The notes beneath the pieces are model-generated. The model ran no database searches. It was not told the origin of the DNA and saw only the letters and a list, made by a program, of their open reading frames with translations. A DNA stretch of 64,000 nt, taken from Amoebophrya sp. A120 (taxonomy: Eukaryota > Protista > Dinoflagellata). The DNA lies in the NCBI GenBank assembly GCA_905178155.1, contig CAJINV010000005.1:5002256-5066255 (forward strand). The letters are read 5' to 3'. This document shows positions 1-64,000 of the stretch, one piece after another. Each line of letters starts with the position of its first letter. Position 1 is the first letter of the stretch. Made by a program: the position numbers and the translations under genes.

Positions 1-3
1 TCA

Positions 4-226
4 TATGAGAGTGCACAACTCCCCCTCCTCCTCATTTGTCATGCAAAATCCCAAATCCATATCCAGCTGCTGCCTTGTAGCACTGTTTGCATGACAAATT
101 CTGGAAGCCCAAACAGTACTACACTGGGCACATAGATTTGTCATGCATAGGCTCCATGTGCGCTGGTGTTTGTATTGCTGTTCATGCCATACAAATGGGG
201 GCGAGGGGGAGTTGGGCACTGTCATA
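4..226. mobile_element. Introner 1, family B
   Basis: TIR tatgagagtgcacaactcccc...ggggagttgggcactgtcata; DR (..)tca/cctca, left copy cut by the window edge. Confidence 0.85.
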
Positions 227-3200
227 CCTCACCGGAGCGTCCCACAACGAGATTGGGCGGATCCAGAGTCTGTTCGTCCCGATGGTGGTTATGAAAGTGC
301 ACAACTCCCCCTCCCCCTCATTTGTCATGCAAAATGCCTAAGTTACGCCGGGGTTCTTGGCAATGTTTGCATGACAAGTTCTAGCAGCCCAAATAGCACT
401 ACAATCCTGCCCAAACTTGTCATGCAAAACCGGTAATCTTGCTGATGCTTGTATTGTTGTTCATGCAATACAAATGAGGGGGAGGGGGAGTTGTGCACTT
501 TCATGGTGGTGAAGGGAAAAACGGAAGACGCGGCAAGTGATGGCCTCGCGAAGCAGTTTTTACTGAAGATTGGGGAGAATCTGGCGGATGAGCTGCAGAT
601 CACAGACAGTGCGAAATATCCTCAGACCTTCACCGCTGACTTCGCCGATCCGGTCGCCCAGTCGATCGCGAAGATTGAGTTACAAAACGCTTTACCACCA
701 CCCCCACACGACGCCGAAAAATGCGGCTACGACCCGAACCCCTCGATTCTTCCGGGCAAGTGGTTCCTCTACATGTACAAGCACGGACAGAATAAAGCGG
801 CCAACGGCTGGAATGACATGCGGTTTGGGAAAAACGTTAATGGGTTAAATTCCCTCTGCCCGCACCCGACAAGTGGGAATGCGAAAATGTCGGAAGCGTT
901 ATTCGACGCGTCCTGCTTCACGGAGCTCCTCGCGGTCGGTGGCACCGGCGCGTGGGCGAAAATCTGGCGCAAGGACGGGGCTTGTATCCCCGCGAAAGAC
1001 GCGTTTGGCGAGGGAGAGAAGCGGACGAACGGCTTCTACAGCATTGAGTTTTCCACGGGCTACAAGGGCGACGCGATTGTGAAGAACTTGTACCACGGAC
1101 CCTTGTTCAATGACATCAATACGGGCTCCATGTGGATGTGGCGTTGCAACAGCAAGAACGCCGACGGAAGCAGCTGCGCGCAGTACGACAGTGGCAGTGT
1201 GCTTGGGAGCCAATACGACAACAGCCCGGGTTCCTGGGGCACGCTGTTGACTTCCCTCCCCGGGCGGTATGCCCCGGGGGGCGAAAAGGGGAGAGGGACT
1301 GACGGGTATAGCTGGTCCTGGTACGGAAAGCAAACGACGGTCGCGCAAAGTCTCGATGAACCCACGACGGCCACAACGACCACGACGTTGTTCAAGAAGG
1401 TGAAGAGAGTGCTGGATGGCTGTGTCGCGGCCTATGACTTCGAGGAAGATGCCGCGGCGCATCCGGGAACAGATGCGGCGGTGTACAAGTCGACAGGTAT
1501 TTCCTCCTCCGGCGTCCCGACCGTCGCGCAACCGCTTGTGTGCGCGGGGAACCAGAAGAACAGTAAGGAGACCCTGAAAACGAGGGTGGGCACCGGCGGA
1601 GAGTACAAATCGTTGCTCTTCACCCGGTATTTACAGGAGGGCGGGTACTGCAGCGGCCCGGCCTTTGACATGCCACAGGATGACGAGAGCCGGACCGTGG
1701 TAGTTTGGTTCAAGCCGAAGATCGGGCCCGCGTATCACACCCCGGTTGGGAACGAGGAGTCGGCCACGTCCGGGCCGGTGGCCTACGGGAACGGGATTCC
1801 GGGCCAGGGTTGCAATTCCCACTTCGCGTTGTGGATCAGCGGGTTTGGGGGGAATTTGTACTTTGGACTAAACTGCCAGGACCCGGGTAATGCGAAGGAC
1901 GGGAACACGGGGTTTAACCCGGTGAAAACCAACCTCCCGGAGAGCTGGATCCACGTGGCGTTCAGCTACAATAAGAGCACCAACAAGTTCAAGCACTGGT
2001 ATAATGGCGGTTCTATGAAGGAAAAAACCGCCAGTATGCCCCCGCACACGCGAACGTGGAACTTCGGGAAAAATTGCATCGGTGCGGGCATCCAAACCTG
2101 CTTCACTGACTTGCAACGCGCAGACGGGTCTTTTCTTTCAACCAGCAAGGCCTTTTTCGCCGGCGAGATCGCGTCTTTCCACATCTACGACCGGGAATTG
2201 TCCGAAACCGAAATCAACTGGGTCAAGTCCCACACCGGGCCGGGTGGGGCGCCGGAGTACATCTTCTCGTCCGGGTTGGAAGCAACCAGAGGTCTCGTAT
2301 TGTGAGGAAAAATCCCCCCTCCCCATATCGAAAGCGAAATTTGTGTTGCTGTATTTGAGTACACAAATCGCATTTGTCTTGCTGGAGAGGACTGCGGACC
2401 CATATCAAGCCTGAGTAGAGAGGCTTTGACTTAGGCGCTTAGCATGAAAAGCCTCCGTGATGTTGGCTCAACAGCATGACAAACCGCCTCCATAATGGGG
2501 CGGAAGCTGCTGCCCTTGTCTTCTTGCAACACAAACGTGATTTGTGACCTCAAATCAGCAACACAAATTTTCGAAAACCTACCGCTTCAATATGGGGAGG
2601 GGGGATTTTTCCTTGCGATATCTCGCGGGGTTGGGGAGGTTCCCCATGGAGCAGCTGCTGGGAAATTCCGAGCTGTATGCAATGCAAAAGCATCGTACTA
2701 GTATAAATTGCATTACAAATTGGCCCAGCACTACAAATCGAATTTGTAATGCTGATTTACCTTGAGAAAGAGATTTGTAATGCATAAATGCAATTACTAC
2801 GAGTACGATACTTTTGGACAGGATAAGCTGATCGCTTCGACGATAACGACATCGACGACAGCTGGTACTACAACTTCCGCCACCTCCGGCTACTGCGACT
2901 TCCACGAGAAATGCACGGACGTTAACAGCAAGTTCCACTGCTTTGAACGCGTCCAGCCTATGGGAGACACGAAGCACCCTGGATTTACGAACACCCCGCA
3001 GAACGTTTTGGACTATGAGAGTACTGGTACTATCCCGCCAACCTACGGCTTCGAGATGACGTTTGCAAATTACGGGAAGATGAAAGGAATCTGCGGACAA
3101 TACATCAACGGCGTGGAGAATTATTTGCCCGATCTGAGGGGCAAACTCACGGGGAACAAGTTTGATTGTATGAACATCTGCAGAAACATGGGCGACATCT

Positions 3201-6200
3201 GCCGCGGCACCACCGGCCACAAATACGGGAACGGGAACGACGGGACAGAGTCTGATGGAAAAGTGTTCTGCGAGTTGGAGCTTCAAACCTGCGACGTGCC
3301 GGCGGAAGTACTCGCAAAAGTTCCAGCGGAATTGCACGAATTGAATTGCAATCCGAATGTCCCCGACCGGAAACACGACATCTACCATGTGAGATCCAGT
3401 GGCAACCAGCCGGAGTGCTGGCGGAAGGTAATCTACCAAGCAGGGCCGAATTCCGCTTTGAATTCCTACGAGTTCCCGTTTGAGGATTTCGTGACGAAGA
3501 GCTACAGCACCGACGTAAAGTACTATGCACTGCAAATACGTCTGGGTCTGGAAAGCTGGCCTTTGTAATGCATATCTTGCATTCCTGAAAATAAAATCTG
3601 TGTTGCACGAGCGGCAAAAGAGCAGCTTGCTTTGTCATGCAGAGATGCAATTTGTAATGCGTGCTAGAGATCAGAAAGCGTTCAAAAAACCAGTCATGCT
3701 TGGCTGCCATTGCAATCGTTTCACTCATGCGCGTTTCAGCATCACAGGTTTCCAGACCCAGACGTTTTTGCAGTTGATAAGCACACGCGTGACACCATTC
3801 CGAAATCCAACCCGTCCTGGGCGTGGAAGGACTCGCTGGGGTTCAGCGAAGAGTATAAGAAAATCGCGAAAACCGCACCTATATGCTCTGCAAAAGTATC
3901 GTACTCGTACTAATTGCAATCATGCATGGCAAATCTTGTTTCTTAGCCAAATCAGCATTACAAAGAACTCCATTTTTCCTTCTGAAAAAACTTGTATTGC
4001 AATTTACACTACGTACGATGCTTTTGCAATGCATACACTAAATCCTCCTTCGATTGCACCCGGGACGCGATCTTGGTGTACAGCCAGAACACCGATTTCG
4101 CCAACAGTAAGGTGACGCAAAAGGCCTGTCTGCAGCTCTGCACGGAGTTTGGAAAGGGGCTGTGTGCGGGAGCGGTCCACTTTTATGATGAGACAGCAGA
4201 AAAATCAAAGTGTTTCCTTATAAAACAGTCTAAATCCGATGTTCTTCTCGGCGCGACGCTCCATTCCGTCGGGAAAAGCGCTTTGGGTTCCTACTGCGAG
4301 GACAACGGGACACATCGGTGCTTCTTCCGGGATGTGAACACCGATTTTGCGCTGGATGCGCCCAACGGGATTAGCAACATCTTTCTCCCGATCTTGAACA
4401 GTGAAAGTACTACGGAAGAGCAGTTTTTGACAAAATTGCTCCCAGTAGCGACTGATGCGACTTTACTACAACAATCCTACCCGTCGAACCACGTGGAGTA
4501 CTTCTACCAGCACTTGGGTCACGGGAAATGCGTGTATCAAATGCAAAAATGTCTGGGTCTGGAAAGTTGCAAGATTTGTGATGCATCTCGCGGACCACAC
4601 TCATGGTCTGTAATGCAGACAGAAGCATCACAGACTTTTTGAGACCTTCCTCATGCCTCTTCCGCATGAGAAATTCGCCTTTTGCCTAGCGAGAATTGGG
4701 TAACTGTTGGCGTTCATGCAGCACAGATTTTCTCGCGATCCAGATTTCGCATGACAGGCTTCATTCTTCCAGACCCAGACATATTTGCAATGCATAGCGT
4801 GCACACGCAGAACAAACGGGAAAACTTGTCCAAACTAACGCGAACTTTCGTCGCCGGGAAAGACTCGGTAGATGGGAAAATCACGAAGGAATTAGCGGAG
4901 GATATGACCCGCTCAGACGTTACAATCTCAAACGTTACATCAATAGAATATGGGAATCTGTGATGCAAGAGTGCATGATCTAGCCAACTCTCATACGATT
5001 GCGCATGACAAGTTCCGGAGCCCCAAACCCACCTGAAATCCGGCAAGATTTGTATTGCGAAAAGCCCAATTCTCTCTGCGTTCCTCATGCTCTTCATGCA
5101 AATAGAATTTCCGGATTCTATTGTAACGTTTGAGATTGTAACGTTTGAGCAGGCCATAGAAGAGTGCTTCTATGAACTGCAAAAGTATCGTATTCGTATA
5201 AATGCATGACAAACCTCCTCAGCATGAGAAATGAAATTTGTAATGCGAATCTACCTTAAGAAAAAGATTTGTAATGCGTGACTGCAATACGAGTACGATA
5301 CTTTTGCACAGGATAGCTTCAACTTCTGCGACATTCTCGCGCTGAGGAACAACCTATGCATTGCAAAAGTATCGCAGTCTGGAAAAGTGGAACTTGTGTT
5401 GCATGTCTTGCATTCCTGAAAAATCTGTATTGCACAGCCACGAAGAAAGGCGCCGCTTTTTCGTCCTGCAAAAACGCAGTTTGTCATGCGTGCTACGCAT
5501 CAGACGGCGTCAAGTATACTTGTCATGCTTGGCTGCGCTTGGGAGCGCCAGCAGTCTTTTATCCATACTGTAGCATCACAGGTTTCCAGACATCCAGGGA
5601 TATTTGCATTTGATACAACCCGTTCAAACACACGACTGACGCCACTCTTCACGAGCTCGTCGGGAAGGGGAGTTTATGGAATGCAAAAATGTCTGGGTCT
5701 GGAAGAGTGCAAACTTGTGATGCTGCGTTTGGATTCCAAAAAAATGTGTATTGCATGAGCAGCAATAAAGGGAAGGCAATTTTTGCTATGCGGAGAGGGC
5801 ATTTGTCATGCGGACTAGGCATCAAGAAGCCCTCACAAAATCTGTGATGCTGGGGCATGCATCACTGACGTCATGGCTCACGCAAAACGTGCATGACAAG
5901 CTTCAGAATCTTCCAGACCCAGACATTTTTGCAATGCATACAGTTACATCGGCCACGAGCTGTGCAAGGGCGTGGAATATCAAATGCAAAAATGTCTGGG
6001 TCTGGAAGGACAAGGATGCGAACTTGTGATGCATACTTGGAGGACACAAAAATCTGTCATGCTTGACAGCAAAGGGAGCTCCTTTTCCTGTCGCCGAAAG
6101 AAGGCGTTTGTCATGCCGATTAAGCATTGGAAAGCCGTCTCAAAATAACCTGTGATGCTAGGGCTTGCATGGCACACCTTCTGTGTTACGCAGACACAGC

Positions 6201-9200
6201 ATCACAAACTTCAGCAATCTTCCAGACCCAGACACTTTTGCAATGTATATGGAATTTACAGGGACTTCTTGTAGTTTGATTGTCGATATGGATTGTAAAA
6301 ATATCTGGGTCTGGAAGGTTGGAACTTGTAATGCTAGCTTTCCATACCTAGACAATCTGTATTGCATAACCAACAAAAGTCGCAGCCTCTTTTGTCATGC
6401 AAAAACGCAGTTTGATTGTCATGCGGATTGCCTATGAGAAAGCGTTTTGGGAAGTTGTCATGCTGGGCTGCATTCGGAAGCGTTTTCATCATGGACATAT
6501 TAGCATCACAAGTTTCCAGACCCAGACATTTTTGCATTTGATTGTGGACCGCATGGATTACAAGACGATGCTCAACTACTACTTCAAGCAGGACGACTAT
6601 GGAGGCGTCAGGATTGAAATCGGCAAAGTTGAAATAATTTCTCACGCGTAAATTGCAAGGCATGAAGTGCCTCTCTTGCAGGGGCGGCAGGTGAGGCCGA
6701 CCGTCAGCCTGTTTGGGATCTGCGGCAGAGCTGCTCAAGTAGCATGACAAAAGACGCCTTCTGTCATTAAACAGCATGACAAACTGGATTTAGACGGTGT
6801 CGATATTTGTCATGCGCCGCTTGAAAATTTGGCTTCCAACTGGTATCGATTTTCTGCAGTGCAAGTTACTTCAACTTTGTCGATTGCAAATCTGACACTC
6901 CCATAACGACATTGCGACTTCCACCGTCACAATCACCTCCACGGTACGGCCGAACTACCCACCAGATTTCTACTACGGGGTCTACAGCTTCGGGGACGAT
7001 TTCCAGTACAAGATGGAGTTCGGGTACGATTCGATCGAAGCGCCGAATCAGGCGGACAACGCGCATTTAGCCTCCTGTACCGGAGATGGTTGTAAACAAT
7101 CCTGTTTCGCCAAGCAGTACAAGTCTTCATTCGAGCGCGGCTACACTTCAAAGCATCCGGATTACGTATCAATTGCAAAAATGTCTGGGTCTGGAAGATT
7201 GCAAGTGTGTCATGCTTGTCTGGCATGAGTCGAGAATCTGTGTTGCATAGACACCGAAAGGCCCTCTTACCTGTCATGCAAAAACGCAGGTTGCCATGCG
7301 GAATACGTAAGACATAGGAGCCAAAAAATTTGTCATGCGTAGCTGCGTATAATTGCAGTGCTTCTACCATTCACTTTTAGCATCACAAGTTTCCAGACCC
7401 AGACATATTTGCAATCCATATTGCGGCATGATCCACCACACGTATAACCCGAATGGTATGAAATGCAAAAGCATCGTACTAGTACAAATCGCATTACAAA
7501 TGTGCTCAGCATTAGAAATGGAATTTGTAATGCGTATTTGAATTGATAAAAAAATTTGTGTTGCATGACTGCAATTACTACGAGTACGATGCTTTTGCAC
7601 AGGATAAATGGTGGCAGTCTGCAAGATTATGTGGACATGAACTCGGACCACCGTGTATCCTGAGCAAAAACGTCCCCACCCCAGAGTTGTAATGCAAATC
7701 TGCATGCTCAGAATGTTTCTCATGCGGAGTTCCATGAGAAGCAATTTCTAGTCGTGTTCTGCAATTTGCCATGCTCGAATGTGCATGATATACTAGATCT
7801 GTTACGCTGCTGAGCTAGCTGAAACAGCACTACGCTACGACTCCAAATTTGTCATGCAAAACAGCCAAAACTTGTGGATTTGTCTAGCCGGTTCCCCATC
7901 TTGACTATGGGGTGGGGACGCTTTTACATAGGATACCGCCACTACGACTGGAGTTGGCGGCGCCACCCGAAGGTGGCGGCGCTGTACGACAAGGAGGACG
8001 GCGACAATACCAACGCGAATAATTATGACGCGAATCCATCGTCGGAAGATGATAAGGGGTGCTTACTACCCGCAGGTCGGTTCGACGGGGTCGCGGGGCA
8101 CAAGAACGCACTGCTCGCGGCGGACAACGTGCACTGCCCGGGGGAGAACAAGGTTTCCATGGTGCAACTCGCGAAGGGCTGCACGGTGGATCTTTGCCCC
8201 ACCTCCCCCACCCCGACGGACACGAGTAAATCACATTGCTTCCGCGTCGGCCCCGGGCCGGGCGTGTTTAAGGCGAGTGACGGGCATTTCGATTCGGACA
8301 CCATGTACGAAGCGCATGTGTATTGTCACATTAACAATCCGGAAGGGATATCAAATGCAAAAATGTCTGGGTCTGGAAGATTCCTACATTTGTCATGCGT
8401 GTCTGACATGACTCAATAATCTGTGATGCATGGGCACGAAGCGGTCCTCTTTTCTGTCATGCAAGCGCGCAGTTTGCCATGCGGAACACGCAACACGTAG
8501 GAGCCCAAAAAATTTGTCATGCTTGGCTCCGTATTGCAGTGGAACTCTCGTTCACTTGTAGCATCACAAGTTTCCAGACCCAGACATTTTTACATTTGAT
8601 AAGGGACGATGAGTTCTTTTGCGGACAATGCGGACGGTTCTGGGGCGAAGTGCTCCCTCCCAATTGGGCGGTACGGGAACAGCTGGGTCAGCACGTGCCA
8701 CCCAAACAAAATCCTGACGGGAGACATCCACGTTGGATCAGATCCTCTACACGGACCGTGTCCGGTGAATGATAAAGTTTCCCAAATTATCATGTGTAAA
8801 AACGTCCCCGCACCAGAGTCAAGATGGTAAATCTGCTACACAAATCAGCCAGCTCTGGCTGTTTCGCATGACAAGTTTGTCCTTGTAGCGGAATCCTGTT
8901 TAGGTAGTTCAGCAGCATCACAGACCTAGCTTATCATGCTGGTTATAGCATCACAAATCCCAAGACACGACTAGAAAACGCCTCTCATGGGGCTCAGCAT
9001 GAGAAACTTTTTTGGCATGCAGATTTGCATGACAACTCTGGGGTGGGGGCGTTTTTGCTGAGGATACAGATCGTGGTGAAAGCCGGCTGTGCCGCGCACG
9101 TGTTCCAGCACTGCGACGGGATCTCGGGAAATTCTATCGCGAGGAGAAATCCCCTCTCCCCATATTGACAAGGTACGTTTTCGAAAATTTGTGTTGCTGA

Positions 9201-54200: not shown

Positions 54201-57200
54201 CACGACAATTTTGACGAACAAGCTGAAGACGAATCTTGCTGCGGACACTTTGTCCACAGACGCTTCTCTGGCGAAGGAGTTGTTGACCGTGCCGGTCACG
54301 AGTAAGGAAAGAGTTTATCTCCAAACGGAGATGGCTTTGTCCATCGACGTGACGCCGAGTGAATCGCTTGATGACGCATTGAATGTGAAGAACACTGGGG
54401 ATTTATCCCCCGCTTTGCAGGCTGCGGTGGCTTCCGCTTTGAAATCTGCGATGCCGGAGGGCGAGGATTTGACACTTCGGTCCGGCGACGTCGCGGTGCA
54501 GTTATTCCCGGAATTGCCGATCAGACAGGATACTTCTACCACGCCTCCGACTCTAACCCAGTCGGTTCGGGTCGCGGTTTCCATCCCGTTAGCTGTTGCT
54601 GGCGGATCGGAGAAGGCGGCGAACCGGTTGCAGCTGTTGATGTCCAAAACCGCAGCGGAATCGACGGATTTCCTGACGAAACTGGCACCGAGGTTGGAGG
54701 TTCGGGGTGTCAACTTCGAGCAAACCGCTGTTGCTGACAGTGGAAGCACAGGCTCTGGTGCTGGCGCAGGAGCCGCAACAGTGCCCGGCCTTGCGGTCAC
54801 GACGGAAAACGCAGCCAGGTCCGAAGTCGCTTCCACCGAAACCACTACGAAGGATAACGTCAACTTTGTCCAATCCGCTCTCCAAATCTCCATCGGCAAC
54901 GCTGGGGTTCCAGCCAAGGAGATGCAGCTGATTCTCTCCAAAGCAATCGCCGAAGCGGTTTCTTCCAATTCCGCAATTCAGGAGGCGGCGGGCGGCGATT
55001 CGTCCGCGATCACGATGAAGGATGTTGGGGTCGTCGTTTCCGCGAAATCGAAACTCACCGACCAGAAGGAAATCTTCGTCACCATCGCTTCCCGGGAGAC
55101 GCAGTCCTCGACCAAGATTCAAGCAGCAATTGCTTCCCTGTTCTCCTCCTCTTCTGAAAAGTCTTACCAGCTCGCGCAGTCGTTCGAGGAGAACGTGAAG
55201 CGGATTATCACGGTTAACGGCGGAATTACCAACCCAGAAGCGAACAAGCAGAAATACGCTTTGGCGGAAATCCGCGGCGGCGCGGTGCAGTCAGTAGCGG
55301 CGATCCCGGCTTCGATGACGAGCGGCAGAGCGCAGTTCAGCTTCAACTCGGAACCAAATATCGACGACAGCATGACAAACGAGCAGCAGGAAGAAGCGAT
55401 CATTAAGTTGATCCAGCAAGGGTTTGCAAACGCTTTGGAAGAAGCTTCTGGTATGGGAATCCAGCCCGAGCAGGTGTCGATTGTTCTCGATCCGGAATCG
55501 GTGAAACTACGACAGCCGACTTTTTCGTATTCTGTGCCTTTATCGGAATCTCAAGTCTCCTGGTTTCTAGATGAGGACACGAACAAGGACAAAACGAAGG
55601 GGTTCACGCCCTATTTGACGGCGGAAATCGACAAGTTAGCGAAACAGGAGACGGATAGTTCTGTCCCCGGAGTAGAGAAACCCGCCTGGGAACAGTTGAC
55701 AGCGAAGGCTACTGATGTCGGCATGGACACGACGGCGGAGACGAAGACGAAAACTTACTTGTCGACAACTTTGGAGTTGGATTTGATTGATTCTGGGGAT
55801 TCAACCTGGCTCCCCAGATCCGAGACGATGCTGCAGCTCTGGGTCCAGTCCGCAGTGCAAAAATCGGTGAAATCCATCGCAAATGTGGATATCAAGTCCG
55901 ACCACGTGTCTGTGTTGTTGGCGGAGGAGCTGCCGAAAACCGGTAATACCGCGAAAGCGAAGATGTCGATCTCGATCCCCTTTGAGTCAACCGATTCTGC
56001 GCCCGTGGATTTACCCGCGGTTTTGTCCGCCTTAGGGGCGAACAACGCAGCGCAATTCATGGCGAACACGAAGACGGAATTGGAGTCTTTTGGTTTAGGC
56101 TTCCAATCCGATGTGAAAATCATCACACCGGAGAAGACCGAGAAGCTCCCGGAAGGGTTGACAACGACCACGACTACAACAACCACTACTGTTGTTGGCG
56201 CGACGCCGAAAACCGCCAGAGAGGCGGCGGCGAGCACCTACGGGACGAAGACTGTAGTCGAGCAGTTGGCGGAGAGGGAAGAAGCAGAAGCTGGCGCTTC
56301 CGCCACTCCACCTCCATTGTTCGCGCCGTCTGCAGAAGCGGTGGTTGCGGCGGAGCCGGGAATTCCTGGCGGCAGTACGTATCTTGAGGGTAAGTTCGAC
56401 ATGAAGGTGACGAACCGGATTTCCACAGAAAGGTTGTCGAACTTGCTGAAGGCAGCAGTTCGTGACTCCCTCCCCTTCGCCGCGCCCGCGACCATGGACT
56501 TGGACTTCACGGTTGCGGTTTCTGTTGCACCGCTATCCCGTTAAAAAGTATCGTAGTTGTACTAGTAATTGCAGTCATGCATGACTAATGCGCGTCTTCA
56601 GGGAAATCACCATGACAAATTCCAACTTTCCTCCTGAAAAAATCTGTGTTGTAATTTCTACCAACGACGATACTTTTGTAATGCATAACCACCATCACAG
56701 GAGCTGATGTTTGGTGAGGTGATTGAGGACCGGCAGACTTCGATCATCATCCACGGTGCAGGTCTGAACACCAAAGCGGTTTCGCAAATCCTAGACGCGT
56801 TGGACAAGATCGAGGAGGGGATGGTGACAGAGGCGAAATCCCCGATTGCAACTTCGTCTACTACGCAGGACGGAACGGTCAGGCAGAATCCGGCTTTGAA
56901 ATTCCAACAACTCGTGAAGCAGTCGGTGGATCAGAAGTTATTAGCTTCCCCCTACAACACAACCACCGGTGGTTTCGCCGTGAAGGAAACTGCGAAGCCG
57001 ATTACCAGGACGGAATCCGAGATCAGCTACTCCTTCGGGGGAGCGGTGAGCCCGCCTCCGAACACCGACACGGTGTTCATTACGAAAAGAGCGATTGCGA
57101 ACGCGCTGAACGAAATCGCCGGGCTGGAGTTGACGCCAGACCACGTCGCCGTGGATTTGAAGACGGATTTCTCGCTCTCACCGGAGATGTCGTACTCCGT

Positions 57201-60200
57201 CCCCTTCGCGAACCCGGCGCTTTCAGCCTATTTGTCCGGGGAGAAAACGGCGAAGCGGGATATGTTTTTGACAAAACTAACCCAGACTTTGAAAACCGAA
57301 ATCGTTTCCTACAAACAGTCTCTCGATCCAGCAACAGCGGGCACTGTGGCGGAAAAAGCTCTAGCGGAATCGAATCTCGATCTCGCTTTGTCGCCCCCGA
57401 CGGGCACAGCAGAGCAGGTTGCAGGCTCGTCGTTGACAATTCCACCGACTGCGAAGGTTGCGAAGACTTCTGCTTTCGCTGAAACCAAGTTGTCGATCGA
57501 TTTAGGAACGAACGACCCGACGAAGCGGCCGGATAAAGACACGGTGAGGTCTATGGTACAGAAGGCGGCGGCAGAGTCGCTGCAGGCGAAATTCCCGGAT
57601 ATCACGATCACGCCGGAGATGGTCATGGTTCGATTCCCGCCCAAGGCGGAGTCCGATACTGCGGTTACTTCGACGGAAGAGTTTTCGGTGTCCTTAGCGC
57701 TGCCGAACGTGAACACCATCCCGGCGGCAGAGCAGACGAAATTGCTGGATAGTCTGTCCTCTACATCTTCCGAAGCGTCTTCCTTAACATCTGCCATGGC
57801 GAGTACGGTGCAATCTTTAGGTGTGGAGAACGTCGCGACCGAGATCAAAGAACTTCCCCCGCAGCCGGACGGCACGCCGACGAAACCGCAGTTAACTGGG
57901 ACGGACGGCGGTTCTGTGGACTTATCCCCAACTGAGCCGCCGCCCGGCGCTCCGAGCTTGAACTTCATCGAAGTCCCAGCTTCCATCGTCACCGCGACGA
58001 AAACGGGGATTTCTGATACCCAGATGCAGGGCTTATTGAAGAAAGCGTTGGAGAAAACCGCACTGAAAGAATTGTTCGAGAAGATCGGCGCCGTCCCTTC
58101 TGGCCCGAATAAGACCGAAACAGTGACCGATGTTACTACTGGACAAACGAAAGAAGTGCAGAAACTCGACGCGAGTAAGATCTTCGGAATTGTCATGGAG
58201 CCTTCTACACCAGTAGCTGCCGGTTCCACCGCGACGAAGAGGAATTTCAAAATGACCATTCAGACCCAGGGCTTGACTGCAACACAACTTGGGTTAGTGA
58301 TGGCGGCTTTAGCCGACGCGGCGGACGATTCTGTCTCTACAAAAGCGGATGAATTCGCTTCTGCGATTAAGGAGGAAGTAGTGAAGGAATTGCAGGCGAA
58401 TCCGATTTCTTCTGTCGGCGATCCGGTGAGCGAGATCACAGCCGGGAAGATGGAAACAGCAAATAAAAGACCACAACTTTCCTCTCAAGTCGAAACGAAG
58501 ATCAGGCTGGAGATCAAGAACCAAATTTCCGGCGCACCGCTCAAAGAGGACATCGTGAAGAAGATGCCGATTCAGCTGGCTTTCGCGAAAGCGCTGGAAA
58601 AGGTAACCGGGACGAAGTTGCTGCCAGAACAGGTCGCAGTTCTAGATGTGGCGGACGCGGTGACGATCGGCGCCGACGGCTCAGTGGATATCAACGTTGG
58701 CGTTGCTTCTTCTTCTCCTTCAATTCTGTCCGCGTTGACCGAGGGGGATGGGAACAAGGTGTTCGCGAACGTGTTGCAGGAGATGATTGGCACCGCGATT
58801 ACCGAAGCGGCGAGTAACAACGAGCTGGACCCGTCTGTACCATTATTAGTAACAACCGACACTTCTGCTGGCGTTGTCGCCCCGACGGTGAATACCCAGT
58901 ATGTCGCGACGCAGGTCGGTTTGCCGGCGGTTGCGGCGGCGGCGAAGAATTCTGGGGAGTTAGCGCCGACAATGAGAACAGCCGCGGCGTCGACCGCGGA
59001 GGCGGTTGTCGGTACTACTGGCCCATTACAGGTCGACAGATCCAACGTCGTTGTCGGGTACACGCCGGGAGACGGTTCTGACGCTAGTGGTTTTTCTGCT
59101 ATGGTCTCTGTCCCGGTGAAGTCGATTGTTTCTACCTCAAAGGCGCCGGTGGATCCGCTTGCGGCAACAGCTGCAGCAGCAGCTCCTGCAACACCACCTG
59201 CGAGTGGAGGTACAACAACACCGCCAACAACCACTCCCAGCACTGGCGCGACGACACCAACCGTCGGCGAAACGGCAGTGACTTCCGTCGCTCAAACCGC
59301 GGGATCACTCCTAGACGCACTGAAATCTGCGATGGCCCAGGACTCTCCTGATTTCGCCGCGCCACTTGCGCAGAAGTTGGAAGTCCTTGGCGTGAAGATG
59401 CAGGAGAACGTCGCGGCGGACACACCACCGTTACCAGTCGAGCAGCCGCCAGTGGAGTCCGTTCCGGCCGTTGCAGCTTCTACGGAGAAATCGCAACTGA
59501 CTTATCTCGAAACCTCCATGTCTTTCGTCGACTACATTGAGGAGCCGCCAAAGACAATCACGAAACCGGACGGGACGGTGGAGCAAGTCGATGTTTCGCC
59601 TTCCACAAGCAATAAAAACTTCCTGCAGAAAGAGATCAAGCAGAAGCTTTCCTCAACGACTGAACTGACGAAACTTGCGAAGGAAGCGATTGCGGAAGTT
59701 TTGGTCGAGTCAAGAACAGACCCGGTCACTGGGGAGAAGATCGAAACCGCGGCGCCATTGTTGATTGAAACTTCTGATGGCAGTTTTGAAGTCAAGCCGT
59801 CGGACATAGCGGTGGTTATCCGCGAAGTCCCCGCGACGGTTACGAGGACATTCTCCAACGGCACAACAGTTGAAGTGCAAGTCATGAAGAAGGAGATGTC
59901 ACTGTCTGTGCAGGTGCGGGAAACGGAAGACTCGTCTGAAGCACAAAGACAACTCCTCGCGTTGTTTTCGAAATTGAACCCGAAGGCAAACTCGTTTCAG
60001 GATGCTGTGCAAACCAGGGTGATGGAACTCGCAGTGGAGAAGACGGTTGAGGAGAAGTTGGTGGATACTTCATTACCTCCAGCAGAACAGGCGAAGATCA
60101 AGCAGCAATTCACACAAGAATCGTTAGCGACAATCCAAGCGCCGGAGAACAGAGACAGCTTCCAAACCGCGGCGAAAGTCGAGAAGGAAATTGCATCTGC

Positions 60201-63200
60201 AGCAAGTACCGTCGGTGGGCAAGCGGCGTTTGAGACACCGGGGCTCTTGCCTGCGACGACGGAAAAGGCGAAGGAGGCGACGACGAACGCCTTGAAACGG
60301 GCGGTGAAGGAGACACTGAAGGAAATCGCGGGTCTGGAATTCGTATGCATTGCAAAAGTATCGTACTCGTGCTGATTGCAATCGTGCATGACAAACTGCG
60401 GTCTTAAGCGAAATCAGCATGACAAGCCCCATTTTTCCTTTTGAAAAAATTTGTATTGCAATTTCCACTACTCCTACTGCGATACTTTTGCAATGCATAA
60501 TCCGAACTGGAGCACGTTTCTGTCAAACTCGACCCGGGCACTGCGGAGATCGGCGCACCGTCGTTCTCCTTCTCCATCCCCTCGCAGGGCAACGTCGCGA
60601 CAGCGCTCTTCTCTGAAGGAAGTACGAAAACCGCTAGTTTTACTGATTTGCTAAAGAAAAAGATCAGCAAGCAGTACTTCCAGGCAGCTTCTGATGAAAC
60701 CTCAGATTCCGCCGTTGAGGGGCTGCCGAAGGTGGATGTTTCAAATGTTGACACGACCCTACCCATCGAGGAGCAGGAAGCGTCTTTGATCACGAAACCG
60801 GTGCAGATGACCGGCACGGCGAAACAATCGAGATTTACAGAATCGACTCTGTCCATCGGCCTGGCTTCTCCCGAGCAGGGTGGGCTATTGCCGAAATCGG
60901 AGGACATGCTGAGATCTCTAATCGTGTCCGCGACGATTGATAGCGTGAAAGCACAGGCGAACTTCGACTTAACGCCATCCGATGTGACAGTAGTTTTCGC
61001 CGGGGATGTTGCCGCGATTCTGGAAATGGTTTCCAAGAACGCAACTTTAGCGACCAATTTGGACGCTACCGTGATTGTGGAAGTCGCTGACTCCCCGACG
61101 CCGGATCCGACGACCAAAACGGTCGAAAATTCCGGTGCGAAGGTGCAGCAGATTGTGGATCAATTGACGACACAAGTCACCGGCGAGGACGGAAAGCCGA
61201 AAACGGTTCCTTCAACCGCTTTTGTCACGAAGATCCAGACGGAATTAGAGTCCTTTGGGTTAAAAGTTCCGAACCCACCAGACCCGGACCCGAAGAAGGG
61301 AATGGAGCAATCCGCACCAGCCACAACCGAAGATTCTTGGGTGCCACCGGTGCCGGAGAAACCTCTGTCGTTAGGTGGGGAGAATCCAAACATCGAGCCC
61401 ACGCCTTTGATTGAAACGAACATCAACGTGAATCTCGGTTCGTCCTCCAAGGGTTTGACAGACAACACCGTGCAGGAAATGATAAGAAACGCAGTTGCGG
61501 AATCTTTGGTCGCAGAATCGACCGTCGGAGAACAAGCCGGACAGCCGGCGCAACCAGTGGTTCCCGGATTCCTCGATTTAGTCCTGGAATCCGCTGGGTT
61601 TTCAAAGCAGGAACAACAAGCGATGACAAAGGTTGAGAAAGCAAAAAATGCGGAGAAGTTCATGGAAAGTCAAATTTCCGTGTTTTTCACCGACAAAAAA
61701 CCGAAAGACAAAGCTGGTGGCGAGCAGCGCGCTTGCTCCGTTGTGATCTCCGCGAAGTTGGCGAATTCCACTGTCGTGCTGGATTTGCTGCAGGCTTTAT
61801 CCAAGGAATCTTCCTCCACTAACGATGAGAAGTTCGAAGAAACGTTCACGGCCGCGCTGAAGCAAACCGCATTGCAGACACATTCTATTCCACCTTCCGA
61901 CATTGTCACCGACGTCACCCAGAAATCAGCGAAACCGGTGGAGCAGATTTCCACGAACATCCAGTTCGACTTCGATATTGTCCCCAAAGACCCGACAACC
62001 ACGCCAGTGAACATGATTTCCGACAATACTATCGCCGAAGCGAAGGTTTCGGTCGAGGAAATGAACATGATGTTGCAGGAGTCTGTCGCGTTTGCGTTGA
62101 ACGGTACAAGGGGGATGTCGCTGCAGGCTTCCCAAGTCGCGGTCAACATTTTGGATGACCTCAGTTCCATCATGACGACCGACCCAGCTGATCCGAGTAA
62201 GAAACTCCTACCGTTGGTGCAGAAGTTGAACAAGGGGCAGCCAAATGAATCGTTGAACAGCTTGCTTTCCAACTTGAATTTCACGATCTCCATCCCAGTG
62301 GCGTCTGACACGAACGAGATGATGCATTTGGCGGACGAAACGGCTGGGAACAAGATGTTTTTGAAAGCGGTCCAGAATTCGATGGCGTCGCAGATTCAGA
62401 CATCGAATTTTATCCCAGAAGTGGTAAAACAGGATTTGAAAGTCGAGACGAAAGAGTTGAAAACCACGAGTTCTGTCCCATTAGCCCAGTCGTTCACCGA
62501 AGCGTTTATGGAGATTGACTCGCCGATTTCCGATGAGGAATTGATCGCGACGATCAAGTATCAAATGTAAAAATGTCTGGGTCTGGAAGAATGCACGTTT
62601 GTCATGCTTGTCTGGCATGACTCTTAAATCTGTCATGCGCGTTACGCTAGAGCTCCGTTTTTCTGTGATGCAGAAGCGCAGTTTGTCATGCAGAATAGGC
62701 AACACCTAGGAGCTCAGAAACTTGTCATGCTGAGCCAGCATTTGTAGCCTCATCATGAGACGCCACCCAGCATCACAAGTTTCCAGACCCAGACACTTTT
62801 GCACTTGATATCAAAGGCGCTGCGGCGGATGCGGTGGACACTTTGGTTCCGAACATGCCGAAGGGGGTGGAGCCGAAGGACATCACGGTGTTGATTTTGA
62901 AAACCGAGGGAAACAAGAGGGAGATTGTCGTGCAGACACCAGTGCAGAAAACGTTACCAATTCAAACGGTGGAAGTGGTTGAAGAGGTGACGGTGACGAA
63001 TCCTGATGGCAGTACCACAGTCACACAAGTGACGAAACAAGTAACTTCGGTGAATGTCACTGCGGTTGCGACTGCGGCAGCCGAGGCGGAGTACAAGGGT
63101 TCTGCGAACGAGGTTGCGAACAAAATGTCCGCGGCTAGCTTCATGGTCCCGTTTTCGACGCGTATGGAGGTGAACTTAGATTCTATGTTCACTTTAGACG

Positions 63201-64000
63201 CTCTTCCGGAGGAAACGCAACCACCGGCAGTCACCGAACCCGCGAAAACCGAACAGCCGGAGGAATTGCCAATAGTGACGGTTGAGGGCGAGATGTCTGT
63301 GGAAATCAAACCCGCGGATCCGAGCAAAACCTTGACTGACAACCAGCTCACCGATCTGGTGAAGGCGGCGGTGGCGAGCACATTAGGTGCGACGACGTTT
63401 GATCCGAAAACCGGGAAGAACACCAAGCCGATGTTCCAGTTGTCGGGCGGGTCGGTTATCAGGTCGGATCAGATCGCGGTGACGAAGTTGGACGGTGGGT
63501 TGCTAGATCCGGACAAGCACACATTCAAAATCGCGGTCCACGGAAACCAGTTGTCCGCCGCGGAGGTTTCGGAAGCGCTGGCGCTGTTGACGAAGCCGCA
63601 GGAAGAGGAGAAACCAGCTGCGCCCGCTGCAGGTCCAGGTGCACCAACAACCGGTATCAAATGTAAAAATGTCTGGGTCTGGAAGAGTTGGAACTTGTGA
63701 TGCAAACTCTGGAACAGACAAAAATTTGTGTTGCATGAGCGCCAAAAGCTGCCCACTTCTTGGCACGCATGTGGCAAGTTTCTCATGCGGGACAGGCATC
63801 ATGAGGCGTGCTCAAAACCTGTGATGCTTTTGCCTGCATCAGACACCATTTGCGTGATCCGAAATATGCATGACAAATCTACAAATCTTCCAGACCCAGA
63901 CACTTTTGCATTTGATAACCGGCACCGGCACTGCAACTGCAGCCCCGCCGAGAAAGGACGTTGTGACAGAGAGGCAGCTGAACTTCCAATCGTTAGTCCA
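227..64000 (+). CDS. Partial giant multi-exon gene (>~16,000 aa in window), putative surface/adhesin/mucin-like protein, open at both ends
   Basis: All long + ORFs join in frame after removing each TIR element plus one 5-bp DR. Examples: ...VPMVV|KGKTED; TRGL|AGLGRFPMEQLLGNSEL|IASTITT; LAEE|CF|NFCDILALRNN|PFKH. No exonic stop codon was found. Confidence 0.85.
290..505. mobile_element. Introner 2, family B
   Basis: TIR tatgaaagtgcacaactcccc; right end reads atg; DR gtggt. Confidence 0.9.
506..2297 (+). CDS. Exon: Trp/Cys/Gly-rich domain copy 1, Thr linker, LamG-like domain
   Basis: ORF 449..2305 trimmed to the flanking elements. Confidence 0.85.
1418..2230 (+). other. LamG / concanavalin A-like (pentraxin-like) domain
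   Basis: Motifs AAYDFEE, RTVVVWFKP, WIHVAFSY...KHWYNG, IGA and FAGEIASFHIYDRELSETEI follow the Laminin_G_3 pattern. Confidence 0.8.
2298..2620. mobile_element. Introner 3, family D
   Basis: TIR tattgtgaggaaaaatcccccctccccatat; DR tctcg. Confidence 0.9.
2676..2825. mobile_element. Introner 4, family E
   Basis: TIR tatgcaatgcaaaagcatcgtact; DR agctg. Confidence 0.9.
2826..3523 (+). CDS. Exon: Thr linker plus Cys-rich (PAN/Apple-like) module
   Basis: ORF 2762..3568; CMNICRNMGDICRG...FCEL. Confidence 0.8.
3524..3779. mobile_element. Introner 5, family A
   Basis: TIR tat..tgcaaa..gtctgggtctggaa; DR agtac/agcac. Confidence 0.9.
3882..4035. mobile_element. Introner 6, family E
   Basis: E-type TIR; DR accta/cacta. 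Confidence 0.85.
4036..4534 (+). CDS. Exon: PAN/Apple-like module
   Basis: ORF 3992..4642; ACLQLCTEFGKGLCAGAVHF...KCFL. Confidence 0.8.
4535..4796. mobile_element. Introner 7, family A
   Basis: TIR tatcaaatgcaaaaatgtctgggtctggaa; DR gcgtg. Confidence 0.9.
4903..5158. mobile_element. Introner 8, family G (single copy in window)
   Basis: TIR tatgacccgctcagacgttacaatctcaaacgttaca; DR gagga/gaaga. Confidence 0.85.
5159..5170 (+). CDS. Micro-exon (12 nt including both DRs; 7 nt net)
   Basis: gaagagtgcttc between two elements; required for the in-frame LAEECFNFC. Confidence 0.75.
5171..5315. mobile_element. Introner 9, family E
   Basis: E-type TIR; DR gcttc. Confidence 0.9.
5355..5615. mobile_element. 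Introner 10, family A with E-like left end
   Basis: Left end tatgcattgcaaaagtatcgcagtctggaa; right end ttccagacatccagggatatttgcatttgata; DR caacc. Confidence 0.9.
5675..5940. mobile_element. Introner 11, family A
   Basis: A-type TIR; DR gagtt/cagtt. Confidence 0.9.
5978..6249. mobile_element. Introner 12, family A
   Basis: A-type TIR; DR tggaa. Confidence 0.9.
6287..6543. mobile_element. Introner 13, family A
   Basis: A-type TIR, right end reads att; DR gtcga/gtgga. Confidence 0.9.
6598..6905. mobile_element. Introner 14, family F
   Basis: TIR tatggaggcgtcaggattgaaatcggcaaagttgaa; DR acgac. Confidence 0.9.
7167..7420. mobile_element. Introner 15, family A
   Basis: A-type TIR; DR ttacg/ttgcg. 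Confidence 0.9.
7457..7606. mobile_element. Introner 16, family E
   Basis: E-type TIR; DR aatgg. Confidence 0.9.
7656..7935. mobile_element. Introner 17, family C
   Basis: TIR tatcctgagcaaaaacgtccccacccc; DR ccgtg/ccgcc. Confidence 0.9.
7936..8348 (+). CDS. Exon with beta/gamma-crystallin-like motif
   Basis: ORF 7874..8419; ENKVSMVQLAKGCTVDLC. Confidence 0.75.
8349..8601. mobile_element. Introner 18, family A
   Basis: A-type TIR; DR aggga. Confidence 0.9.
8788..9066. mobile_element. Introner 19, family C
   Basis: C-type TIR; DR caaat/cagat. Confidence 0.9.
9135..9478. mobile_element. Introner 20, family D
   Basis: D-type TIR; DR aattc. Confidence 0.9.
9591..9870. mobile_element. Introner 21, family A
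   Basis: Degenerate left TIR (starts tac); DR ggcct. Confidence 0.85.
9871..10276 (+). CDS. Exon: PAN/Apple-like module
   Basis: ORF 9899..10426; SDCGRACLTLGKDCLGY...PCIL. Confidence 0.75.
10277..10557. mobile_element. Introner 22, family C
   Basis: C-type TIR; DR aactg. Confidence 0.9.
10634..10919. mobile_element. Introner 23, family C
   Basis: C-type TIR; DR agtga. Confidence 0.9.
10978..11241. mobile_element. Introner 24, family A
   Basis: A-type TIR; DR actga/actgt. Confidence 0.9.
11242..13769 (+). CDS. Exon: two PAN/Apple-like modules plus a degenerate super-repeat segment
   Basis: Frame is open from 11242 into ORF 11492..13777; FCYGTCNKFSSCAGISF and RCLYTCELK...CKAVVYRSSDETCVL. 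Confidence 0.85.
13770..14051. mobile_element. Introner 25, family C
   Basis: C-type TIR; DR gaaag. Confidence 0.9.
14411..14672. mobile_element. Introner 26, family A
   Basis: A-type TIR; DR ggcgg/ggtgg. Confidence 0.9.
14716..15022. mobile_element. Introner 27, family F
   Basis: F-type TIR; DR cctct. Confidence 0.9.
15023..15727 (+). CDS. Exon including the start of Trp/Cys/Gly-rich domain copy 2
   Basis: ORF 15031..15789; PGKWELYMYKHG...LNSLCPHPTSGNAKM. Confidence 0.85.
15728..15981. mobile_element. Introner 28, family A
   Basis: A-type TIR; DR acact/gcact. Confidence 0.9.
16026..16288. mobile_element. Introner 29, family A
   Basis: A-type TIR; DR tgggt. Confidence 0.9.
16606..16860. 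mobile_element. Introner 30, family A
   Basis: A-type TIR with variant right end; DR ctccg. Confidence 0.9.
16861..18400 (+). CDS. Exon, Ser/Thr/Ala-rich repeat region
   Basis: ORF 16868..18454 trimmed. Confidence 0.85.
18401..18707. mobile_element. Introner 31, family F (inverted relative to 14 and 27)
   Basis: F-type TIR; DR tcacc. Confidence 0.9.
18708..19279 (+). CDS. Exon
   Basis: ORF 18725..19324; in-frame join LPIT|PASVVIR. Confidence 0.8.
19280..19541. mobile_element. Introner 32, family A
   Basis: A-type TIR; DR cggaa/cagag. Confidence 0.9.
19632..19910. mobile_element. Introner 33, family C
   Basis: C-type TIR; DR cgaga/tgaga. Confidence 0.9.
19911..20742 (+). CDS. Exon with mucin-like Thr-rich tract
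   Basis: ORF 19861..20754; TTATPTTTT...TTSTTSTSTTTTSSTTTTT. Confidence 0.85.
20743..21010. mobile_element. Introner 34, family A
   Basis: A-type TIR; DR aaacg. Confidence 0.9.
21193..21340. mobile_element. Introner 35, family E
   Basis: E-type TIR; DR tcgct. Confidence 0.9.
21387..21644. mobile_element. Introner 36, family A (variant TIR at both ends)
   Basis: TIR tatcaaaagtaaaaatccctggatgtctgg; DR aagga. Confidence 0.9.
21718..22039. mobile_element. Introner 37, family D
   Basis: D-type TIR; DR atact/attct. Confidence 0.9.
22228..22506. mobile_element. Introner 38, family A
   Basis: Degenerate A-type TIR; DR ggagc. Confidence 0.9.
22507..23102 (+). CDS. Exon with Thr-rich linker
   Basis: ORF 22520..23158 trimmed. 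Confidence 0.8.
23103..23420. mobile_element. Introner 39, family C
   Basis: C-type TIR, right end reads aga; DR ggaca. Confidence 0.9.
23421..24503 (+). CDS. Exon: Cys-rich, PAN/Apple-like modules
   Basis: ORF 23551..24558; GECFNLCDAMGADCQGISM...DCFLK. Confidence 0.85.
24504..24756. mobile_element. Introner 40, family A
   Basis: A-type TIR; DR tggca/gggca. Confidence 0.9.
25134..25386. mobile_element. Introner 41, family A
   Basis: A-type TIR; DR agggg. Confidence 0.9.
25387..27103 (+). CDS. Exon: three PAN/Apple-like modules
   Basis: ORF 25339..27114; CKELCEKDVVCTGYQY, ECAEVCDLLGADTCSGFD, WCMLLCNRMSKCTRI. Confidence 0.85.
27104..27252. mobile_element. Introner 42, family E (degenerate)
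   Basis: E-type TIR; DR eroded (gattc/gcctt), but removing 5 nt still restores the frame. Confidence 0.8.
27253..28566 (+). CDS. Exon, super-repeat region
   Basis: ORF 27302..28615; LPMRLESLGV landmark. Confidence 0.85.
28567..28879. mobile_element. Introner 43, family D
   Basis: D-type TIR; DR tccga. Confidence 0.9.
28880..29394 (+). CDS. Exon, super-repeat region
   Basis: ORF 28874..29548 trimmed. Confidence 0.8.
29395..29547. mobile_element. Introner 44, family H
   Basis: TIR tatgcaatacaaatttcccgtacatgtacaaa; DR ggtac (the only element readable as GT-AG). Confidence 0.85.
29548..31352 (+). CDS. Exon, super-repeat region
   Basis: ORF 29563..31395 trimmed. Confidence 0.85.
31353..31632. 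mobile_element. Introner 45, family C
   Basis: C-type TIR; DR aaggg. Confidence 0.9.
31633..34078 (+). CDS. Exon, super-repeat region
   Basis: ORF 31591..34086 trimmed. Confidence 0.85.
34079..34357. mobile_element. Introner 46, family C
   Basis: C-type TIR; DR tcacc. Confidence 0.9.
34427..34635. mobile_element. Introner 47, family I
   Basis: TIR tatcacaagaaaaaactgtttcactgt; DR tcgct. Confidence 0.9.
34636..35159 (+). CDS. Exon, super-repeat region
   Basis: ORF 34612..35199 trimmed. Confidence 0.8.
35160..35315. mobile_element. Introner 48, family H
   Basis: H-type TIR; DR acgat. Confidence 0.9.
35316..37260 (+). CDS. Exon, super-repeat region
   Basis: ORF 35196..37322 trimmed; SSWLP landmark. 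Confidence 0.85.
37261..37512. mobile_element. Introner 49, family A
   Basis: A-type TIR; DR gaaag. Confidence 0.9.
37560..37768. mobile_element. Introner 50, family I
   Basis: TIR tatgcaagaaaaaaactgtgt; DR cttgt. Confidence 0.9.
37905..38113. mobile_element. Introner 51, family I
   Basis: I-type TIR; DR aggct. Confidence 0.9.
38114..39699 (+). CDS. Exon, super-repeat region
   Basis: ORF 38059..39837 trimmed. Confidence 0.85.
39700..39945. mobile_element. Introner 52, family A (inverted sibling of 13)
   Basis: A-type TIR; DR ctacc. Confidence 0.9.
39946..41841 (+). CDS. Exon, super-repeat region
   Basis: ORF 40008..41888, open upstream to the element. Confidence 0.85.
41842..41991. mobile_element. 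Introner 53, family H (inverted sibling of 48)
   Basis: H-type TIR; DR cacgg. Confidence 0.9.
42046..42260. mobile_element. Introner 54, family B
   Basis: B-type TIR; DR ctcgt. Confidence 0.9.
42261..45765 (+). CDS. Exon, super-repeat region
   Basis: ORF 42174..45770 trimmed. Confidence 0.85.
45766..45994. mobile_element. Introner 55, family B
   Basis: B-type TIR; DR ttccg/ctccg. Confidence 0.9.
45995..47586 (+). CDS. Exon, super-repeat region
   Basis: ORF 45963..47624 trimmed. Confidence 0.85.
47587..47838. mobile_element. Introner 56, family A
   Basis: A-type TIR; DR ggatc. Confidence 0.9.
48066..48284. mobile_element. Introner 57, family B
   Basis: B-type TIR (left end starts tac); DR tccaa. 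Confidence 0.9.
48285..49959 (+). CDS. Exon, super-repeat region
   Basis: ORF 48160..50028 trimmed. Confidence 0.85.
49960..50221. mobile_element. Introner 58, family A
   Basis: A-type TIR; DR tcgtc. Confidence 0.9.
50222..51639 (+). CDS. Exon, super-repeat region
   Basis: ORF 50236..51684 trimmed. Confidence 0.85.
51640..51904. mobile_element. Introner 59, family A
   Basis: A-type TIR; DR aagag. Confidence 0.9.
51905..56533 (+). CDS. Largest exon (4.6 kb), about one full super-repeat
   Basis: ORF 51754..56544 trimmed. Confidence 0.85.
56534..56687. mobile_element. Introner 60, family E
   Basis: E-type TIR; DR accgc/accac. Confidence 0.85.
56688..60343 (+). CDS. Exon, super-repeat region
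   Basis: ORF 56707..60375 trimmed. Confidence 0.85.
60344..60499. mobile_element. Introner 61, family E
   Basis: E-type TIR; DR attcg/atccg. Confidence 0.9.
60500..62558 (+). CDS. Exon, super-repeat region
   Basis: Open frame from the element into ORF 60648..62570. Confidence 0.85.
62559..62810. mobile_element. Introner 62, family A
   Basis: A-type TIR; DR tcaag/tcaaa. Confidence 0.9.
62811..63654 (+). CDS. Exon, super-repeat region
   Basis: ORF 62834..63700 trimmed. Confidence 0.8.
63655..63917. mobile_element. Introner 63, family A
   Basis: A-type TIR; DR accgg. Confidence 0.9.

What the first reader, a model, noticed from the sequence alone, without database searches (positions are those of the whole stretch)
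30..63880. All nine families share a reiterated internal motif, TGT(C/G/A)ATGC and its reverse complement
Seen: although TIRs and interiors differ, every family is studded with ttgtcatgc, tgtgatgc, tgtaatgc, tgtattgc and the complements gcatgacaa and gcatcaca, roughly every 20-40 nt. For example, element 49 has copies near 37302, 37317, 37366, 37386, 37425 and 37472. The motif tends to point inward from each end and is rare in exons. It persists where the flanking interior sequence has diverged. Inference: an array of binding sites for one shared factor, either a transposase (like subterminal repeats) or a protein that marks the element for excision. This is the best clue here to the missing machinery.
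Basis: partly seen in the sequence, partly recalled or inferred. Interest (0 to 1): 0.8.

Follow-up and report, generated by a model that had tools for sequence, protein, structure and literature searches.

The report
Helix-spaced docking code in jumping introns
Sixty-three small transposon-like inserts that interrupt one giant gene, likely of the plankton parasite Amoebophrya, all carry the same short DNA word on either strand at fixed, helix-like spacings, which likely marks where the still-unidentified enzyme that moves them grips the DNA rather than how they are spliced out.

Summary
The motif is real: TGT(A/C/G)ATGC occurs 221 times in 63 TAT...ATA, 5-bp-duplication elements (63 of 63; all nine families) and 4 times in 48.5 kb of exon. 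The elements match the published Amoebrophrya A120 introners. Removing each plus 5 nt opens one 16,073-codon frame, and likely-RNA contigs skip 9 of 9 tested. I found the internal motif in none of the papers searched; this scan noted it before on other DNA of this genome. 'Inward-pointing' holds mainly for the outermost sites. The real grammar is same-strand pairs 31-33 bp apart (11 of 15 families) and first sites 33, 43, 54-57 or 64 bp from the tip. Family C has sites on one strand only and sits in both orientations. Motif changes are rarely propagated (0.10-0.23 of expectation) but appear to decay neutrally after insertion, unlike the TAT tip. Best reading: double-stranded DNA sites for the transposase, working like hAT subterminal repeats (0.62). 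The main rival is a host DNA-binding factor (0.22): sites, including 32-33-bp pairs, are about 6-fold enriched in single-copy predicted GT-AG introns. No transposase was found or tested here.

The parts
1..64000 (+). Part of one giant gene; a stop-free frame of 16,073 codons once the 63 elements plus 5 nt each are removed
   Evidence: retaining any of the 63 gives a stop; one LamG domain in 9 exon ORFs scanned
37261..37512 (.). Element 49 (family A, 27 members): TAT...ATA, GAAAG duplication; sites at 37302>, 37333>, 37366>, 37386>, 37425>, 37472<; weak inverted half-site at 37317
34079..34357 (.). Element 46 (family C, 9 members): all sites one way (33> 64> 112> 145> 194> 225>); 4 sister copies carry them only on the other strand
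31353..31632 (.). Element 45 (family C, reverse orientation): sites only as GCA..ACA on the transcript strand
56534..56687 (.). Element 60 (family B, 8 members): one strict site, yet skipped (159 nt) in likely-RNA contigs; its imperfect duplication brackets the cut
29395..29547 (.). Element 44 (family B2, 3 members): a motif copy lies inside the terminal repeat at position 4, the next 31 bp further in
45766..45994 (.). Element 55 (family D, 5 members); skipped (234 nt) in likely-RNA contigs
28567..28879 (.). Element 43 (family F, 4 members): three 32-bp pairs (45>77>, 129>161>, 230<262<)
14716..15022 (.). Element 27 (family G, 3 members): 43> 145< 177< 211> 258<
37560..37768 (.). Element 50 (family H, 3 members): 33> 64> 122< 157>
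4903..5158 (.). Element 8 (family I, single in the window): 57> 101< 149>
30..63880 (.). 314 matrix-defined sites (consensus about AAYTTGT[CGA][AT]TGC) inside the 63 elements; 9 hits in exons at the same threshold

Best explanation
The conserved word, about AAYTTGT(C/G/A)(A/T)TGC, sits in every element at fixed spacings on either strand and is likely a double-stranded DNA binding site for the transposase that copies these introners, working like the subterminal repeats of hAT transposons. Shown: shared motif, 31-33-bp same-strand pairs, first sites about 33, 43, 54-57 and 64 bp from the tip, strand independence, strong loss of propagated motif variants. Inferred: a multimeric enzyme would load on sites facing one side of the helix and cut at the invariant TAT/ATA tip, leaving a 5-bp duplication, so families with unrelated terminal repeats could share one enzyme or one closely related enzyme group. 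Splicing would use a second code, the tip plus the terminal RNA hairpin, and would not need the motif.
For: Spacing: direct pairs at 30-33 bp in 11 of 15 families; 10 of 15 representatives against a null mean of 2.2, reached by 0 of 20,000 permutations. Tip phasing: 23 family peaks, Rayleigh p about 9e-4 at 10.5 bp. Strand: family C sits 5 times one way and 4 times the other with sites on one strand only; 43 homologous sites score alike either way, p 0.92. Selection: shared motif variants 0.10-0.23 of expectation, private 0.50-0.61, tip private 0-0.16. The private motif rate (1.7-2.0%) is near the post-insertion rate implied by duplication mismatches (2.8-4.3% per pair of copies), while the tip is 0.4-0.7%. 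Precedent: asymmetric subterminal repeats, one inside the terminal repeat, in Hermes (PMC10368747, passages); hAT5 makes 5-bp duplications (PMC12730594, passage).
Against: No transposase-coding element in the window or in 144 related loci: 0 of 74 long ORFs hit a transposase family and no long gene-bearing element was found. So the link to an enzyme is untested. The published search found no transposase in A120 (PMC7789003, passage). The site is about 11 bp, longer than the 4-bp Hermes repeat. Sites are enriched in single-copy predicted GT-AG introns without terminal repeats: 26 against 4.3 expected, in 16 of 72 introns, with 3 pairs at 32-33 bp against 0 expected. The best phasing period is loose (10-12.5 bp) and the families may share ancestry. 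The neutral-rate estimate is rough.
Confidence: 0.62

Rival explanations
1. A host DNA-binding protein reads the motif on double-stranded DNA, either as an accessory for transposition of many different transposases or as a chromatin mark that helps co-transcriptional removal of the intron.
For: It explains every DNA-level feature equally and sharing across unrelated terminal repeats. In DNA with no recognisable element, 7 of 21 direct pairs fall at 31-34 bp. There is 6-fold enrichment in predicted GT-AG introns. Private motif changes are half the spacer rate.
Against: 56 of 72 predicted GT-AG introns have no strong site. Exons are not depleted. Private motif decay is close to the neutral estimate. 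Phasing is anchored on the transposon tip. Decayed introners could leave such relics by chance.
Confidence: 0.22
2. An RNA signal: a single-strand site, a branch point (GCAU-n-AC resembles U-n-A-y; consensus recalled), or motif-to-motif pairing that extends the hairpin.
For: Motif bases are predicted paired 75% of the time against 59% for spacers, and 32% pair with an opposite copy (no shuffle control). In predicted GT-AG introns 18 sites read UGU..UGC against 8 the other way.
Against: 4 of 63 elements lack one strand's form and 5 of 63 lack the other. TGTTATGC, which would give the best branch word, occurs 0 times against 221. Outer inverted copies are identical less often than chance: 36 against 71 of 163. 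Element 60 with one strict site is spliced.
Confidence: 0.07
3. A relic of common ancestry: all families descend from an old 31-bp tandem unit and the word has no present function.
For: A weak inverted half-site at +15 and recurring 35- and 47-bp offsets suggest a shared module.
Against: Spacers inside the pairs differ between families (by eye) while the word is kept. Propagated variants are depleted 4- to 10-fold.
Confidence: 0.04

Closest known systems
Amoebophrya sp. A120 introner elements (Farhat et al. 2021, PMC7789003: abstract, passages, section 10, text searches of the supplement; Gozashti et al. 2025, PMC12130899: passages, 41 of 58 A120 rows of supplement file 8)
   Same: TAT start, mostly seven variable bases then an A-run, short direct repeats, about 250 nt, many families, non-GT-AG ends. 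Gozashti's family 38 is noted '5-bp TSD, TA/TA termini'.
   Different: No internal motif, spacing rule or strand symmetry in what I read. Farhat calls cut sites variable; three informative junctions here fit one cut after the fourth duplicated base.
hAT subterminal repeats: Hermes, Ac, Tol2 (PMC10368747, passages); hAT5 (PMC12730594, passage)
   Same: Several short sites inside the ends, asymmetric and in mixed orientation, one within the terminal repeat; a 5-bp duplication occurs in hAT5.
   Different: About 11-bp site, strict 31-33-bp pairs, shared by families with unrelated terminal repeats; no transposase seen here.
IS3EU/GingerRoot (PMC10045372, passages)
   Same: TA..TA termini.
   Different: Usually 6-bp duplications; no subterminal array in the passages read.
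Euglenid nonconventional introns (PMC11282704, passages)
   Same: Hairpin-defined non-canonical introns of likely MITE origin.
   Different: Different end code; no internal array in the passages read.

Membership tests
Amoebophrya A120 introner elements | Terminal inverted repeats | tested here: met
   63 elements; terminal stems fold, z -7.1 and -5.0 for two examples
Amoebophrya A120 introner elements | 3-5-nt direct repeat at the borders | tested here: met
   5 nt exact in 42 of 62; per position 53-60 of 62
Amoebophrya A120 introner elements | TAT + 7 nt + A-run | tested here: met
   TAT/TAC in all; A-run in most families, absent in D, G, I
Amoebophrya A120 introner elements | Removed from RNA without GT-AG | tested here: met
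   9 of 9 skipped in X1-X3 (one sample, RNA status a guess); under the inferred cut, GT in 20 and AG in 3 of 63
hAT (subterminal-repeat system) | Multiple asymmetric subterminal sites | tested here: met
hAT (subterminal-repeat system) | 8-bp duplication (5 bp in hAT5) | tested here: inconclusive
   5 bp: fails typical hAT, fits hAT5
hAT (subterminal-repeat system) | Cognate hAT transposase with BED domain | tested here: inconclusive
   none in 74 long ORFs of 144 loci; no whole genome held
hAT (subterminal-repeat system) | Sites bound by the transposase and needed for excision | not testable with these tools
   needs binding and excision assays
IS3EU/GingerRoot | TA..TA termini | tested here: met
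IS3EU/GingerRoot | 6-bp duplication | tested here: not met
   0 of 62 at 6 bp
Spliceosomal branch point | Sense-strand site near the 3' end of every intron | tested here: not met
   5 of 63 have no such site at all; the best-fitting variant is absent

The most novel reading that the evidence does not exclude
Two separable codes drive this intron invasion. A DNA code (invariant tip plus helix-phased 11-bp sites) lets one factor mobilise any element whatever its terminal repeat, and an RNA hairpin code makes each insertion spliceable. In the boldest form, the factor is a host protein that also marks a subset of ordinary GT-AG introns, and those introns are the fossil end-stage of introners.
Probability: 0.2. 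Interest if true: 0.85.

Novelty: new variant of a known kind. Interest (0 to 1): 0.6.

Why it matters
The published work leaves open what moves the tens of thousands of Amoebophrya introners and how they are removed. A defined site with a spacing rule is a bait for binding assays and a filter for picking the true master element among long candidates. The contrast between motif and tip points splicing work to the tip and hairpin. Relic sites in GT-AG introns may trace how transposons become ordinary introns.

Tried and rejected
No whole genome was held, and the loci could not be searched as whole records. The first read lay was swamped by the DNA run and showed no usable joints; raw-read runs X10 and X11 matched only short element pieces. 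Viral contigs had 0 hits for the family A end. The motif-pair pattern gave 9 viral and 37 prokaryote hits; 44 of these 46 held at most 3 sites in 300 bp and the two denser ones are unrelated tandem repeats. Rfam: 0 matches. The 972-bp element in L065 is a short element with a later insertion, not a master copy. The idea that the terminal TAT-N7-AAA is itself a worn motif holds only for families B and B2 and one small family. A G-U over A-C excess in the terminal stem was 47 against 21 in the window but 79 against 66 in the loci: weak. PMC6004678 (passages) was not relevant. Not-in-print claim: paper searches; supplement text searches. Supplement figures, files 13-14 of PMC12130899 and Roy et al. 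2023 (Curr Biol) were not seen and could bear on it.

Full report
What the elements are. A search for inverted ends with flanking duplications gave 63 candidates. I dropped 2 (43572 and 59016: weak ends, 3 of 5 duplication, no relatives checked) and added 2 found through their motif clusters (27104 and 29395). The final set is checked independently of the motif. Removing each element plus 5 nt gives one stop-free frame of 16,073 codons; plus 2 or plus 8 nt also stay open, the other offsets give 282 stops or more. Retaining any one element gives a stop. Contigs of runs X1-X3 (one sample; RNA status is the tool's guess) skip exactly element plus 5 nt at 9 of 9 elements in 44001-64000. Imperfect duplications at elements 60, 61 and 62 fit one cut after the fourth duplicated base (inference from three junctions). 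These features match the A120 introners of PMC7789003, so the organism is likely of that type.

The observation. TGTVATGC occurs 221 times in elements and 4 times in exons; shuffles give 4.5. A matrix gives about AAYTTGT[CGA][AT]TGC, with 314 sites in elements and 9 in exons. With motif columns defined from a third copy, identity is 0.71-0.94 against 0.58-0.78 in spacers. 'Inward' holds for 189 of 314 sites.

Replication. A metagenome scan with the family A end returned 144 loci, all from one other assembly. Family A is therefore over-sampled, and the assembly may be the same species; the one window exon tested was not among the loci. Of 525 unique candidates (window included), 467 were repeated and kept, and 58 singletons were dropped. 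They form 15 families, all with the motif; 455 of 467 copies have a strict site.

Grammar. Same-strand pairs peak at 31, 32 and 33 bp, present in 11 of 15 families, with 0-1 families at 9-12, 19-22 or 40-43 bp and 3 at 51-54 bp. No permutation of 20,000 reached the observed 10 of 15. Inward sites start at 33-34, 43-44, 53-58, 64-65 and 75 bp from the tip. The Rayleigh p is about 9e-4 at 10.5 bp, but the best period is 11.5 and families are not independent. I ran that test after reading note e1-10626161.

DNA or RNA. Elements lie in both orientations. Four family C copies have no sense UGU..UGC site and five have no sense GCA..ACA site. Across 43 homologous sites the score does not depend on strand (p 0.92). 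No family C copy was among the RNA-checked nine, so its splicing rests on the frame test. The outer inverted copies are identical less often than chance. The variant best suited to a branch point is absent in the window and occurs 8 times against 911 in the loci. Against this, folding predicts motif bases paired more often than spacers.

Level of selection. In tight clusters (40-180 copies), shared motif variants are 0.10-0.23 of expectation, private ones 0.50-0.61, and private tip changes 0-0.16. Duplication mismatches, which arise only after insertion, are 2.8-4.3% per pair of copies. Private rates are 1.7-2.0% for the motif, 1.7-2.1% for the inner terminal repeat, 3.4-3.7% for spacers and 0.4-0.7% for the tip. 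The simplest reading is that the motif is needed to spread and the tip is needed by the host. It is rough, because one duplicated copy is partly coding.

Evidence against. No master element or transposase turned up. After masking all recognisable elements, 190 sites remained in 376 kb and 7 of 21 direct pairs fell at 31-34 bp. In 72 predicted single-copy GT-AG introns (my own segmentation; no RNA check), 16 carry 26 sites against 4.3 expected, with three pairs at 32-33 bp; 56 carry none. These may be decayed introners or maintained host sites.

Comparison. The motif works like hAT subterminal repeats (PMC10368747), and 5-bp duplications exist in hAT5. Membership in hAT is unproven here. IS3EU shares the termini but fails on duplication length. 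Unreviewed scan notes describe long TAT...ATA elements with predicted hAT-like genes elsewhere in this genome, and one note finds such a candidate unproven. I could not test these and do not count them as support.

Verdict. The elements are known. The shared, phased motif is real, was not found in the papers searched, and was noted before by this scan on other DNA of the genome. It is most likely a DNA-level transposition code (0.62); a host factor is the live rival (0.22). Interest 0.6; new variant of a known kind.

Noticed in passing
L005 370-500 and 2216-2315; L020 3347-3494 (-); L052 2367-2479 (-); L042 about 4570-4743: Predicted single-copy GT-AG introns without terminal repeats that still carry a motif pair 32-33 bp apart; the L042 flanks read like acyl-CoA oxidase (recalled motif).
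   Followed up: partly
window 1-64000: The host gene exceeds 16,000 codons, is rich in Ala, Ser, Thr and Val, and has one LamG domain; an RNA-like contig of 25,372 nt covers its 3' part.
   Followed up: partly
element positions 4-10, all families: The bases right after TAT vary as much as or more than spacers, with shared variants 2-4 times expectation, while positions 1-3 are nearly invariant.
   Followed up: no
L065 11024-11995: A family A element holds a roughly 700-bp insert with an A-rich tail and a 19-bp duplication that includes a motif copy, like a non-LTR insertion.
   Followed up: partly
L015 505-1608: A 1.1-kb element with family G ends, five sites in the first 220 bp and a GC-rich repetitive interior without sites.
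   Followed up: partly
L012 2635-6090: Cytosine methyltransferase domain split across two predicted exons.
   Followed up: no
predicted GT-AG introns in L-loci: Donors are mostly GTAT or GTAC (42 of 72; the picker favoured GTA), often with T-rich 5' and A-rich 3' parts.
   Followed up: no
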